Origin: Escherichia coli
GTDB taxonomy: Bacteria > Pseudomonadota > Gammaproteobacteria > Enterobacterales > Enterobacteriaceae
Length of the DNA: 64,000 nt
NCBI RefSeq assembly: GCF_030013205.1
Contig: NZ_CP122648.1
Strand: one strand, 5' to 3'
Made by a program: the position numbers. Position 1 is the first letter of the stretch, and each line of letters opens with the position of its first letter. Shown in pieces: positions 3,001 through 6,000 of the stretch.

Positions 3001-6000
3001 GTCCCTGAGGCCGCCTCATCATCTTAAAACTTACTGAATAACCAGCGTATTAATGATGTTTTCTGCGGTGGTCTGCGCTTTTTGCTGATCGTCAGCGGGC
3101 AGCGTAATTTGCATGGTCAGCAGTTGATTACCTACGTTACCCAGAATAACGGAAGAGTACGCCGTCTGGCCTTTCGCGGAGATAATGCTGTCTAACTGCT
3201 GCATTTTGTGACCTTTCAGCTCAATGGCTTTATTGGTCACCACTTGCAGCTGCGGATCGCGGCTACGTTGCTGATCTTCCAGACGCTTCGCCAGCACTGC
3301 CAGATCTTCTTTCGGATCATCGCCCATGATGACGATGACTGCTTTTTGCCCGGTGGCGTCGGACCAGACATGCATGTTATTAGCCTGCGTTCCCAGCTTA
3401 CCGCTCTGGTCGGTCATATCCGCTGGCAGCGAGAAACTTAACTTGCCATCAAGCAGGTTGACGGGATTCCCGGTAGCGTTACTTTCCGCGACCGAACCCT
3501 GCGCCGTAGCGTTAGTGTCTTTATCATCACAGGCCGCAAGCCCCATAACCAGCAGGCCAATTCCGACATATTTAACCAGATTGCGCATTGACTTCTTCCT
3601 TTCGATAAACGGCCATAACGGCTCATTCATCCATCTTATCACAACTCTGATAACGAACCTTTAACTCGCCTGCAAAGCGTTGATTTCGGATTTATCTGCC
3701 AGTCTTTTCAACAGCATATTGAGTAATACGCCATACATTGGCAGGAAGAAAACGATACTGATTAACACTTTGAAACAGTAATCGACCAGCGCGATTTCCA
3801 TCCAGTGTTCAGCCATAAAGGCATCCGGGCTACGCCAGAAGGCTATGAAGAAGAAGGCCAGCGTGTCGCTGACGTTACCAAACAGGGTGGAAGCCGTCGG
3901 TGCCAGCCACCAGCGACGACTCTGACGCAGGCGGTTAAAAACGTGCACGTCGAGGATTTGCCCCAGCGCGTAGGCCATGAAACTGGCGGTGGCGATACGG
4001 GCGACAAACAGGTTGAAGTGGGCGAGTGCGCCGAATCCCTGCCATGACCCCATATAAAACAGCGATGAGATGACGTAGGAGATCAGCAATGCGGGGATCA
4101 TTACCGCAAAAATGATACGACGAGCCAGCGGCGCGCCAAAAATACGCACGGTCAGGTCAGTAGCGAGAAAGATAAACGGAAAGCTAAATGCGCCCCAGGT
4201 GGTATGGAAACCAAAAATGGAGACGGGAAGCTGAACCAGATAGTTACTGGAGGTGATCACCAGCAGATGAAATAACGACAACCAGAACAACGCCTTATAG
4301 CGTTGAGTTTGCGAGAAAACGTTCATATTGTACCTTTTTGATTAACCATTGGGGTGAGGGAACCCAATACGTACGACACGTCTGTTACCTTAACATAATA
4401 ACGTGCTTACCCTTTTTTCGAGCCGCCGCATGATACTGCTTTACGTTGACAATGCAATGGTTAATTTTCACGCAATCGTTAACCTGGTTTGCTTACGGAC
4501 TCACAGGGCGTAAACTAGCGCCGTTTTTTTATGTGATGAGAAGAAAATGACCGATCTCTTTTCCAGCCCTGACCACACACTCGACGCACTTGGCCTGCGC
4601 TGCCCGGAACCGGTGATGATGGTGCGCAAAACCGTGCGCAATATGCAGCCTGGCGAAACGTTGCTGATTATCGCCGACGATCCGGCCACTACCCGCGATA
4701 TTCCTGGGTTTTGTACCTTTATGGAACACGAACTGGTTGCTAAAGAGACGGATGGACTGCCTTATCGTTATTTGATTCGCAAAGGCGGTTGATGGGGGCT
4801 GATTGGCTTCGATGCCGCCTTTTCCCCTCACCCTAACCCTCTCCCCAGAGGAGCGAGGGGACCGATCGCGCTCAATGTTGCGATCGGTTTGCCTTATCTC
4901 CTGCGCAACAATCTTAACGCATTCGCTGTTACCAGCACCGTCGCACCCGTATCTGCCAGCACTGCCAGCCACAGCCCGGTCATTCCTAATAGCGTGGTGA
5001 CGAGGAAAACGCCTTTCAGCCCCAGCGCGATAGTGATGTTCTGGCGGATATTGGCGTGAGTGGCGCGTGCCAGTTCAATCATTTGCACCAGGCCGCGCAG
5101 GTGGTTATGGGTTAATGCTGCGTCGGCGGTTTCCAGGGCCACGTCTGTGCCACTGCCCATTGCAATCCCAATAGCGGCGGCTTTCATCGCTGGCGCGTCG
5201 TTAATACCATCACCGACCATCGCCAGCGGCGCATGTTGATTCAGCTCGGTCACCGCTTTGACTTTATCTTCCGGCAACAGGCCCGCTTTAAATTCCAGCC
5301 CCAGTTCCCCGGCAATTGCCGCCGCTGCGCGTGGATTATCGCCGGTGAGGATCACTCCTTTAACCCCCAGCGCGTTAAGTTCACTGATAGCAGTTGCAGC
5401 ATCGGCGCGCAGGGTATCCTGCAATGCAATTACGCCAAGCACGTCATCGTTACGCACTACCAGCACTACCGTTTGCCCGGCGCTTTCCAGTTCATTAATC
5501 AAACCAGCAAATGCAACAGCCGGATGTTTTCCGGCAGCGCATATCAACACGCGCTCACCGTTAACCTGCGCTTCAATGCCAGACCCAACCAGCGCCCGCT
5601 GTGATTCGGCGGCGGGAATGGCGAGTTCAGCAACCTGTGCTTCGCGTACGATGGCTTGCGCCAGTGGATGCGTCGCGCCTTGCTCGACCGCCGCTGCCAG
5701 TGTCAGCAGTTCAGATTCACTAATACCCGTTGCCGGATGAATCGCGGTAACGCGCGGTTTACCGACGGTCAGCGTACCGGTTTTATCAAACGCCACCTGG
5801 GTAACACGACCTAGTTGTTCCAGCGCCGCACCGCCTTTAATCAACGCCCCACGACGCGCTGCTGCTGCCAGCCCGGAGGTAATCGCCGCAGGCGTTGAGA
5901 TAACTAACGCACACGGGCAACCAATCAGCAGCAGCGTCAGCCCTTTATAAATCCACTCTTGCCAGCTGGCGGCAAACAGCAGCGGCGGCACCAGCGTTAC

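What the first reader, a model, noticed from the sequence alone, without database searches (positions are those of the whole stretch)
4800..4875. Two copies of a GC-rich palindromic intergenic repeat (boxC-like)
The tusA-zntA spacer and the ugpB-ugpA spacer (23986..24145) share a near-identical core (cctcaccctaaccctctcccc...ggggaccgatcg) with internal inverted symmetry. Neither is explained by a coding region. Their function is unknown; they could be mRNA stability or attenuation elements within or next to operons.
Basis: seen in the sequence. Interest (0 to 1): 0.3.

Follow-up and report, generated by a model that had tools for sequence, protein, structure and literature searches.

The report
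Known BoxC intergenic repeats in E. coli
The two GC-rich spacers hold three copies of BoxC, a catalogued E. coli intergenic repeat of unproven function, so the finding is real but ordinary; one modest addition is that in the ugp operon a BoxC pair sits where most strains carry a different repeat or a plain hairpin.

Summary
The 21-nt core CCCTCACCCTAACCCTCTCCC occurs at 4825-4845 and 23994-24014. About 0.03 matches are expected by chance.

All three are BoxC elements, also called PIT or TMECO (Holder et al. 2015, PMC4666352). The tusA-zntA copy is orthologous to K-12 TMECO no. 16 and differs by one base. The ugp spacer holds a type A + type B inverted pair, a known configuration.

What is added here:
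- **ugp alleles.** Only 317 of 5,426 complete E. coli genomes carry the ugp BoxC pair. 5,105 carry a REP pair in the same place.
- **Other genera.** They carry REP pairs, plain hairpins (two with a T run), or a related BoxC-like spacer.
- **Shared structure.** In the spacers folded, the main stem-loop starts about 8-10 nt after the ugpB stop codon.
- **Other BoxC loci.** Several show the same pattern of alternative hairpin alleles.

The most likely local effect is therefore a generic RNA 3' stem-loop that is interchangeable with REP. It is probably not a sequence-specific signal. Triplex formation is shown only in vitro (literature).

Verdict: already known, low interest.

The parts
4811..4873 (-). 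Full-length BoxC type A element in the tusA-zntA spacer (the G-rich strand is the minus strand). It comprises the 5' flank GAGCGCGATCGGTC, the core, and the 3' flank GAAAAGGCGGCA.
   Evidence: The flanks match the type A family consensus built from 16 copies. The element is 99% identical to the K-12 spacer.
4824..4859 (-). 36-nt three-block core, read on the minus strand: CCCTCGCTC (4859-4851), loop CTCTG, GGGAGAGGG (4845-4837), loop TTA, GGGTGAGGG (4833-4825), G. This is type A. It has the family's usual G.A mismatch plus one extra C>T change in block 1 relative to K-12 TMECO no. 16.
4861..4888 (.). Second hairpin: arms ACCGATCGC (4861-4869) and GCGATCGGT (4880-4888), 10-nt loop. The left arm is the BoxC type A flank. 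On the + strand it is followed by TTTGCCTT, which is weakly terminator-like for tusA. It starts 5 nt after the zntA stop codon on the minus strand.
   Evidence: RNA folds of the spacer on both strands: -44.4 and -45.6 kcal/mol, z = -3.0 each. The consensus terminator scan did not call it.
23986..24160 (+). The whole 175-nt ugpB-ugpA spacer, the BoxC-pair allele. In the ugp mRNA the C-rich left core pairs with the G-rich right core and encloses an inner hairpin.
   Evidence: MFE -83.9 kcal/mol, z = -4.1; centroid nearly the same. This allele is present in 317 of 5,426 genomes.
23994..24026 (-). BoxC type A core with a perfect hairpin: CCCTCTCCC TTT GGGAGAGGG TTA GGGTGAGGG on the minus strand. 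It starts 8 nt after the ugpB stop codon.
24027..24062 (+). Type A flank GACCGATCGG plus its partner CCGTGTCGGT, forming the inner hairpin of the ugp spacer.
24089..24101 (+). Type B 5' flank GCACCGCCTTTCT.
   Evidence: All 9 type B copies share a ..gcaCcg.TTTTCT flank. A similar flank is present in Cedecea without the core.
24102..24137 (+). BoxC type B core: CCCTCGCCC CTCTG GGGAGAGGG CCG GGGTGAGGG G. It lies head-to-head with the type A core.

Best explanation
**What it is.** The tracts are three copies of BoxC, a known dispersed intergenic repeat of E. coli, also published as the PIT element and as the TMECO triplex motif. There is one type A copy between tusA and zntA, and a head-to-head type A + type B inverted pair between ugpB and ugpA. 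They are non-coding and variable between strains.

**What is shown.**
- Family membership.
- Orthology of the tusA-zntA copy to K-12 TMECO no. 16.
- Strong predicted stem-loops.
- The ugp BoxC pair is one of two spacer alleles in E. coli. The other allele is a REP pair.
- Other genera place REP pairs, plain hairpins (two with a T run) or a BoxC-like hairpin at the same spot, 8-10 nt after the ugpB stop codon where folded.

**What is inferred.** At these sites the element matters, if at all, as RNA structure. It supplies the GC-rich 3' stem-loop that follows the stop codon. Such a stem-loop would block 3'-to-5' exonucleolytic decay of the upstream message. It may also impede read-through or the terminating ribosome. 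Either effect would help uncouple UgpB from UgpAEC levels, as described for REP elements in malE-malF. This role depends on structure rather than sequence, so the element is interchangeable with other palindromes.

**Third block.** The G-rich block that allows an intrastrand DNA triplex in vitro is a family hallmark. Its role in vivo is unproven.
For: **Identity.**
- Exact matches to the published consensus.
- Type-specific flanks shared with 22 K-12 copies.
- 99% identity to the K-12 tusA-zntA spacer, which is listed as TMECO no. 16 between zntA and tusA.
- A + B inverted pairing as described in the paper.

**Structure.**
- ugp spacer MFE -83.9 kcal/mol, z = -4.1.
- tusA-zntA spacer about -45 kcal/mol on either strand, z = -3.0.

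**The slot is conserved while the sequence is replaced.**
- 5,105 genomes carry the REP-pair spacer (-49.4 kcal/mol, z = -6.7) and 317 carry the BoxC pair.
- A Klebsiella-labelled locus and Buttiauxella have REP pairs, and a truncated Salmonella contig shows REP-like sequence (not folded). Pluralibacter and Atlantibacter have a plain hairpin plus T5. A Providencia-labelled locus has a plain hairpin. Cedecea has a BoxC-like hairpin.

**The same pattern at other BoxC loci.** At adk-hemH and tauD-hemB the non-BoxC allele carries a plain hairpin after the stop codon.

**Location.** 16 of 18 K-12 BoxC loci lie downstream of at least one gene end: 7 convergent, 9 co-directional, 2 divergent.
Against: - The literature summarised in PMC4666352 reports no promoter or terminator activity and no effect on RNA polymerase for these elements.
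- Neither site matches a hairpin-plus-T-run terminator in the scan.
- BoxC is dispensable at several loci. It is absent from the pstA-pstB spacer in about 61% of genomes.
- A simple hairpin role does not explain why the third block is kept, with the same block sequences, in distant phyla.
- No transcript data were available here.
- Palindromic repeats may simply accumulate where hairpins are tolerated. Co-location with a hairpin slot does not prove function.
Confidence: 0.55

Rival explanations
1. **DNA-level element.** When single-stranded, the G-rich strand folds into an intrastrand purine-motif triplex (hairpin plus third block). This stalls replication or repair and makes the surrounding spacer unstable. 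It is the proposal of Holder et al. 2015.
For: - The paper reports in vitro triplex formation by CD and NMR, a polymerase stop, and greater variability around these sites in 56 strains.
- Blocks 2 and 3 of all three window copies satisfy the G.G-C, A.A-T and T.A-T triplet rules, read directly from the sequence.
- Both window loci are polymorphic, as are pstA-pstB, adk-hemH, tauD-hemB and yihS-yihR.
- In CFT073 the third block is partly deleted, leaving a two-block hairpin.
- The three-block core recurs in distant phyla.
Against: - The same paper found no triplex in double-stranded DNA and no protection in in vivo DMS footprinting.
- The aaeR-tldD copy is present in 5,415 of 5,426 genomes, so the motif is not inherently unstable.
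- Most polymorphisms seen here are whole-spacer replacements linked to flanking coding haplotypes. That pattern indicates recombination, not local breakage.
Confidence: 0.2
2. **Selfish or neutral passenger.** BoxC is a small non-autonomous mobile repeat, or one spread by recombination, with no host function. It persists only where insertions are tolerated, namely 3' ends and intercistronic spacers.
For: - Presence frequencies range from 6% to 99.8% across loci.
- At pstA-pstB there is a clean 92-bp indel bounded by an 8-10-bp direct repeat that contains the pstA stop codon. This resembles a target-site duplication.
- Subfamilies A and B each have their own conserved flanks.
- Distant bacteria have lineage-specific loops and flanks and high copy number. 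Mitsuaria dominates the 120-locus scan.
- Copies occur on plasmids and in IMG/VR viral contigs.
Against: - There are no clear terminal inverted repeats, and no transposase is known for the family (own knowledge).
- Only one of five polymorphic loci examined shows a clean indel. The others are whole-spacer replacements.
- Holder et al. found no association with mobile elements in E. coli.
- This reading is compatible with the RNA-hairpin effect as a side consequence, so the two are not exclusive.
Confidence: 0.35
3. **Protein or RNA-factor binding site.** The three invariant blocks are recognised by a widely conserved factor, for example a nucleoid protein, Rho on the C-rich transcript, or an RNA chaperone.
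For: The block sequences CCCTCNCCC / GGGNGAGGG / GGGNGAGGG are identical in contigs of 32-74% G+C from several phyla, while loops and flanks differ. However, the search pattern itself required those blocks.
Against: - No factor is known (own knowledge).
- The published work found no common function among flanking genes.
- There is no orientation bias relative to transcription among K-12 single copies, worked out.
Confidence: 0.08
4. Chance resemblance of two GC-rich spacers.
For: None.
Against: - 0.03 matches are expected by chance against 3 exact hits observed. For the full consensus, 0.00 are expected against 2 observed.
- The family is documented.
Confidence: 0.01

Closest known systems
BoxC = PIT (potential intrastrand triplex) element = TMECO (Bergler 1992 and Bachellier 1990s from own knowledge; Hoyne & Maher 2000-2002 as cited in PMC4666352; Holder et al. 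2015, PMC4666352)
   Same: Everything that could be tested matches:
- the three-block consensus;
- loop-2 types A (TTA) and B (CCG);
- A + B inverted pairs;
- strictly intergenic position;
- type-specific flanks;
- the tusA-zntA copy is K-12 element no. 16.
   Different: - The ugpB-ugpA pair is not in K-12 and so is not in the paper's Table 1. It is a minority allele (5.8% of complete genomes).
- The pair has the rarer head-to-head arrangement, like K-12 nos. 17+18. Four of the five K-12 pairs are tail-to-tail.
- The window's tusA-zntA copy carries one extra mismatch in block 1.
REP / PU elements and BIMEs
   Same: - Both are short GC-rich extragenic palindromes found at 3' ends and inside operons, often as inverted pairs of two subtypes.
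- A REP pair occupies exactly the same ugpB-ugpA slot in 94% of E. coli and in several other genera.
- REP is known (own knowledge: Newbury et al. 1987; Liang, Rudd & Deutscher 2015) to stabilise upstream mRNA, and to stall terminating ribosomes when it lies within about 15 nt of a stop codon.
   Different: - The sequences are unrelated.
- BoxC has a third G-rich block outside the hairpin.
- BoxC has no known RAYT-type transposase and no known IHF, gyrase or Pol I binding.
- BoxC has about 20-30 copies per genome, against several hundred for REP.
Intercistronic hairpins and partial intrinsic terminators in binding-protein ABC operons
   Same: The position is the same, immediately after the binding-protein gene. 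Pluralibacter and Atlantibacter have a plain hairpin plus T5 in the ugp slot.
   Different: The BoxC pair has no T run after it. It was not called by the terminator scan.
MITEs and ERIC/IRU-type small repeats
   Same: - Both are small, non-coding, dispersed and variably present.
- One BoxC locus (pstA-pstB) has a TSD-like direct repeat.
   Different: - No clear terminal inverted repeats.
- No partner transposase.
- Most polymorphic loci are not clean insertions.
H-DNA / mirror-repeat triplex motifs
   Same: Blocks 2 and 3 form a purine mirror repeat that obeys the purine-motif triplet rules.
   Different: The triplex here is intrastrand (hairpin plus third strand within one strand). It has been shown only for isolated single strands in vitro.

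Membership tests
BoxC / PIT / TMECO | Three-block consensus 5'-CCCTCNCCC-N3-6-GGGNGAGGG-N3-GGGNGAGGG-3' on one strand | tested here: met
   There are exact matches at 24026-23994 (-) and 24102-24136 (+). The 4859-4825 (-) copy matches except for one base in block 1, CCCTCGCTC. Blocks 2 and 3 are exact in all three copies.
BoxC / PIT / TMECO | Loop 2 defines type A (TTA) or type B (CCG); close inverted pairs always combine one A with one B | tested here: met
   The 4824-4859 and 23994-24026 copies have TTA. The 24102-24137 copy has CCG. The ugp pair is A + B.
BoxC / PIT / TMECO | Strictly intergenic and dispersed in many copies per genome | tested here: met
   Both sites lie between annotated genes. 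K-12 has 23 copies. Queries containing the element hit a median of 3-4 places per genome.
BoxC / PIT / TMECO | Orthology to a catalogued copy | tested here: met
   The tusA-zntA spacer is 99% identical to K-12's. It is listed as no. 16 at 3,608,684-3,608,719 between zntA and tusA. The ugp pair has no K-12 counterpart.
BoxC / PIT / TMECO | Type-specific conserved flanks (extended imperfect palindrome of roughly 56-65 bp) | tested here: met
   Consensus from 16 type A and 9 type B copies: type A has ..GCaCgGaaCGGTC | core | GAAcag.., and type B has ..gcaCcg.TTTTCT | core. The window copies carry these flanks. The 3' flank of the ugp type A copy is cut short by the end of ugpB.
BoxC / PIT / TMECO | The G-rich strand forms an intrastrand triplex in vitro | not testable with these tools
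   Only Watson-Crick folding could be computed. Compatibility with the triplet rules was read from the sequence.
REP / BIME | REP (PU) consensus palindrome, e.g. GCCGGATGCGGCGTGAACGCCTTATCCGGCCTAC | tested here: not met
   The window elements share no REP sequence. The K-12 allele of the ugp spacer is a REP pair, and apart from the few bases next to the genes it aligns to the window spacer only with gaps and scattered matches.
Intrinsic (Rho-independent) terminator | GC-rich hairpin with a 3-8-nt loop followed by a T run | tested here: not met
   The scan found no site at either spacer. The hairpin 4861-4888 followed by TTTGCCTT is borderline, and its 10-nt loop is outside the rule.
MITE-like mobile element | Terminal inverted repeats plus target-site duplication at filled versus empty sites | tested here: inconclusive
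   At pstA-pstB a 92-bp indel is bounded by an AACCGTGT direct repeat. At ugp, adk-hemH, tauD-hemB and yihS-yihR the whole spacer differs between alleles. No clear terminal inverted repeats were seen.
Any Rfam RNA family | Covariance-model score at or above the gathering threshold | tested here: not met
   Nothing passes the gathering threshold at either site. Sub-threshold hits were Hrs13 (19.7 bits against 52) and whalefall-1 (17.7 bits against 37).

The most novel reading that the evidence does not exclude
**One hairpin slot, exchangeable cassettes.** The ugpB-ugpA spacer may be a single functional slot for an intercistronic stem-loop. Unrelated cassettes fill it: a BoxC pair, a REP pair, or a plain hairpin with or without a T run. 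These cassettes would be exchanged between enterobacterial genera by short-patch recombination.

Evidence for linkage: the window and K-12 differ at 5 sites in the last 40 nt of ugpB. Cedecea, which has a BoxC-like spacer, agrees with the window at 4 of the 5. Buttiauxella and the Klebsiella-labelled locus, which have REP spacers, agree with K-12 at 4 of the 5.

**A spreading core.** More broadly, the BoxC three-block core may be a module that spreads horizontally across phyla. It is present on plasmids and in viral contigs, and one locus has a TSD-like junction. The conserved third block would then reflect a requirement of its own propagation rather than a host function.
Probability: 0.3. Interest if true: 0.4.

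Novelty: already known. Interest (0 to 1): 0.15.

Why it matters
It matters little as a discovery. BoxC has been known since the 1990s, and this tusA-zntA copy is already catalogued.

The residual value is practical:
- **A natural experiment.** E. coli strains carry either a BoxC pair or a REP pair in the same intercistronic position of a well-studied Pho-regulated operon, and related genera carry plain hairpins. This allows a direct test of whether these palindromic repeat families are functionally equivalent RNA 3' modules or neutral passengers. That question has been open for BoxC for about 30 years.
- **An annotation hazard.** Database UgpA entries of 299-372 aa appear to have start codons called upstream, apparently in the spacer (not checked).

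Tried and rejected
1. **Rfam.** Nothing passes the gathering threshold. The sub-threshold Hrs13 hit spans the tusA-zntA element. Hrs13 is an Erwinia-specific sRNA next to ansP (PMC4070566), so the resemblance is generic hairpin-plus-terminator similarity. The whalefall-1 hit (17.7 bits against 37) was likewise dismissed.

2. **Coding potential.** Four mechanical ORFs across the elements have no Pfam match above threshold.

3. **Promoter and terminator scans.** No sites were found at either spacer.

4. **GACCGATCG...CGGTTTGC as a separate shared module.** GACCGATCG turned out to be the conserved type A flank. The downstream TCGGTTTGC is largely forced by complementarity. Only 2 of 16 type A copies have such a second hairpin (read by eye).

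5. **Conserved 5' flanks as insertion targets, with the core alone as the mobile unit.**
   - Suggested by a Cedecea spacer that keeps GCATCGCCTGTTCT|AACA without the type B core.
   - Also suggested by an E. coli allele that keeps GACCGATCGCGC without the type A core.
   - Contradicted at pstA-pstB, where the flank is part of the 92-bp indel.
   - Left as unsupported.

6. **A weak fourth match at 22510-22530, upstream of ugpB.** It has 2-3 mismatches, no hairpin partner was seen by eye and only one block is intact. It is probably chance.

7. **Collection scans.** They show breadth but not true abundance. The E. coli representative genome was not reached, so the K-12 copies were fetched one by one.

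8. **Literature searches.** No papers were found on BoxC transcripts, or on REP and stop codons, in the held library.
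Full report
**Observation.**
- The window is E. coli. It is 100% identical to swine ETEC O139:H1 chromosomes.
- tusA lies at 4547-4792 (+) and zntA at 4894-7092 (-). They are convergent and leave a 101-bp spacer.
- ugpB lies at 22669-23985 (+) and ugpA at 24161-25048 (+). They leave a 175-bp spacer.
- CCCTCACCCTAACCCTCTCCC occurs exactly at 4825-4845 and 23994-24014.
- The variant CCCTCACCCCGGCCCTCTCCC lies inverted at 24116-24136. That gives 3 exact matches to the degenerate pattern, against 0.03 expected by chance.
- The repeat finder and a three-way alignment confirm both the direct and the inverted relations.

**Identity.**
- Holder et al. 2015 (PMC4666352) describe the same sequence under three names: BoxC (1990s), PIT element (Maher's group) and TMECO.
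- Its consensus is 5'-CCCTCNCCC-N3-6-GGGNGAGGG-N3-GGGNGAGGG-3'. K-12 has 23 copies. Type A has TTA in loop 2 and type B has CCG. Five K-12 sites hold inverted pairs, each combining one A with one B.
- The two ugp cores match the consensus exactly.
- Read on the minus strand, the tusA-zntA core is CCCTCGCTCCTCTGGGGAGAGGGTTAGGGTGAGGGG. It is one base away from K-12 no. 16 at 3,608,684-3,608,719, and the whole spacer is 99% identical to K-12's. The paper's supplementary table places no. 16 between zntA and tusA.
- No Rfam family reaches its threshold at either site.
- The overlapping mechanical ORFs have no Pfam match above threshold.

**Anatomy of the family.**
- I fetched all 18 K-12 loci and aligned the copies on their cores.
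- Type A copies share a 5' flank (G-strand orientation) of about caAaaa.gtGCaCgGaaCGGTC and a 3' flank GAAcag...
- Type B copies share a 5' flank ..gcaCcg.TTTTCT, and several also have ..CGCGCAC downstream.
- The full tusA-zntA element spans about 4811-4873.
- In the window and K-12 allele, the flank ACCGATCGC pairs with GCGATCGGT at 4880-4888 to make a second hairpin.
- The ugp pair is head-to-head (type A on the minus strand, type B on the plus strand, 75 nt apart). It resembles K-12 nos. 17+18 at lldD-trmL. The other four K-12 pairs are tail-to-tail, 18-29 nt apart.

**The ugp spacer is a two-allele locus.**
- K-12 has no BoxC there. Its 97-bp spacer is an inverted REP pair. Apart from the few bases next to the genes, it aligns to the window spacer only with gaps and scattered matches.
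- Among 5,426 complete E. coli genomes, 317 (5.8%) carry the window's spacer and 5,105 (94%) carry the K-12 type.
- Both alleles fold strongly as RNA. The BoxC allele gives -83.9 kcal/mol, z = -4.1: the C-rich left core pairs with the G-rich right core around an inner hairpin. The REP allele gives -49.4 kcal/mol, z = -6.7.
- In the BoxC allele the long core-to-core stem starts 8 nt after the ugpB stop codon. In the REP allele the stem starts 9 nt after it.

**Other genera fill the same slot in different ways**.
- A Klebsiella-labelled locus has a REP pair (-59.5 kcal/mol).
- Buttiauxella has a REP pair (-52.6 kcal/mol) that visibly resembles K-12's.
- A truncated Salmonella contig shows REP-like sequence next to ugpA. 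It was not folded.
- Pluralibacter and Atlantibacter have a plain hairpin followed by T5.
- A Providencia-labelled locus has a plain hairpin.
- Cedecea neteri and Enterobacter sp. Ap-916 have a spacer alignable with the window's. It has a BoxC-like 10-bp hairpin at the same start, a second hairpin, and the type B flank, but no type B core.

**The two alleles are linked to coding haplotypes.**
- In the last 40 nt of ugpB, the window and K-12 differ at 5 sites.
- Cedecea agrees with the window at 4 of the 5. Buttiauxella and the Klebsiella-labelled locus agree with K-12 at 4 of the 5.
- This points to short-patch recombination or an old shared polymorphism, not to a fresh insertion.

**Other BoxC loci in E. 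coli.** Presence was estimated as at least 80% coverage of a K-12 query.

| Locus | Genomes with the K-12 (BoxC) type |
|---|---|
| aaeR-tldD | 5,415 |
| tusA-zntA | 5,031 |
| tauD-hemB | 3,601 |
| fabI-ycjD | 3,288 |
| adk-hemH | 2,913 |
| yihS-yihR | 2,334 |
| pstA-pstB | 2,099 |

- The tusA-zntA count includes alleles with three extra REPs.
- tusA-zntA also has a CFT073 allele in which the third block is partly deleted. Another allele has no core, but has REPs and a 102-aa ORF.
- At adk-hemH and tauD-hemB the alternative allele is a non-homologous spacer with a plain hairpin after the stop codon (-22.0 and -17.2 kcal/mol).
- Only pstA-pstB shows a clean 92-bp indel. It is bounded by the direct repeat (T)TAACCGTGT / TCAACCGTGT, which includes the pstA stop codon. 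This could be a target-site duplication, or a deletion between repeats.

**Breadth.**
- The exact three-block pattern is abundant in Mitsuaria (Burkholderiales), in a Methylomirabilota MAG and in Contendobacter. Loops and flanks are lineage-specific.
- It also occurs in at least 120 IMG/VR contigs of 32-74% G+C.
- It is found on plasmids or chromids of Sinorhizobium, Azospirillum, Rhizobium and Enterobacteriaceae.
- This agrees with the paper's count of more than 260 genomes. It qualifies the paper's statement that the motif is not on mobile elements in E. coli.

**Mechanism.**
- *Shown:* family membership, strong predicted stem-loops, and replacement of sequence with retention of structure at the ugp slot and at two other loci.
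- *Inferred:* at these sites BoxC acts as a generic RNA 3' stem-loop. It would be a barrier to 3' exonucleases and perhaps an obstacle to read-through or to the terminating ribosome. This is the role described for REP in malE-malF and for REPs within about 15 nt of stop codons (own knowledge: Newbury et al. 1987; Liang, Rudd & Deutscher 2015).
- *Against:* no terminator or promoter activity was reported for these elements. BoxC is dispensable at several loci. A hairpin role does not explain the conserved third block.
- *Triplex model:* it has in vitro support only. The in vivo DMS result was negative.
- *Passenger model:* a selfish or neutral passenger reading remains compatible with all the data.

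**Verdict.** The finding is a correct recognition of a known repeat family. The tusA-zntA copy is already catalogued. The ugp pair is a strain-variable copy of a known configuration. Interest is low. The one useful by-product is the natural BoxC/REP/plain-hairpin allelic series at ugpB-ugpA.

Noticed in passing
window 15068-16499: A 1.4-kb IS1397 (IS3 family) is inserted in the loop of a REP between panZ and livJ. The flanks read gccggatgcggcgtaa | IS | gtaaacgccttatccggcctac. It is absent from K-12. IS1397 is known to target BIME/REP loops (own knowledge).
   Followed up: yes
window 57193-57298, with the Rfam hit at 57229-57271: The only Rfam hit besides RyhB, ES036 (CssrF) sRNA at 43.6 bits, lies inside a REP/BIME cluster. 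That cluster is an inverted repeat of the REP cluster at 22319-22436. The hit is probably REP-derived sequence and not a distinct sRNA gene.
   Followed up: no
window 33317-33381: RyhB sRNA gene (Rfam 83.1 bits).
   Followed up: no
L136 (K-12 pstA-pstB) 278-369, compared with L272 and L274: The K-12 BoxC no. 19 is part of a 92-bp segment missing from about 61% of E. coli genomes. The segment is bounded by the direct repeat TTAACCGTGT / TCAACCGTGT, which contains the pstA stop codon. This is a junction resembling a target-site duplication.
   Followed up: partly
L268 and L270 (Cedecea neteri, Enterobacter sp. Ap-916), ugpB-ugpA spacers: These spacers align with the window's BoxC-type spacer. 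They keep the type B flank GCATCGCCTGTTCT|AACATT but lack the 36-nt type B core. This is either an empty site or a precise loss of the core.
   Followed up: partly
L123 608-916 (E. coli CUVET19-1704, tusA-zntA spacer): Roughly 5% of E. coli genomes (a rough estimate from the spread listing) carry a 102-aa hypothetical ORF, apparently membrane-like by eye and not analysed, plus REPs between tusA and zntA. They have no BoxC core, though the type A flank GACCGATCGCGC remains.
   Followed up: partly
proteins P0001-P0004, corresponding to window 23986-24160: Database UgpA entries of 299-372 aa, against the normal 295 aa, appear to have start codons called upstream, apparently in the repeat-containing spacer. 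These look like annotation artefacts caused by the spacer. This was not checked.
   Followed up: no
window 22510-22530: A degenerate half-match to the BoxC blocks (CGGTGACGGCGTGGGTGAGGG on the minus strand, 2-3 mismatches) lies in the ugp promoter region. It has no hairpin partner seen by eye and is probably chance.
   Followed up: partly
window 13876-14175 versus 17422-17721, and 14861-14996 versus 18413-18548: Direct repeats of 300 and 136 nt at 71-73% identity, about 3.55 kb apart. By position they are probably the paralogous livJ and livK binding-protein genes, judged from synteny with K-12.
   Followed up: no
L148-L267 (IMG/VR contigs): The exact three-block BoxC-type motif occurs in at least 120 viral contigs spanning 32-74% G+C, some with several copies or inverted pairs. 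Whether these are true phages or prophage or host fragments was not checked.
   Followed up: partly
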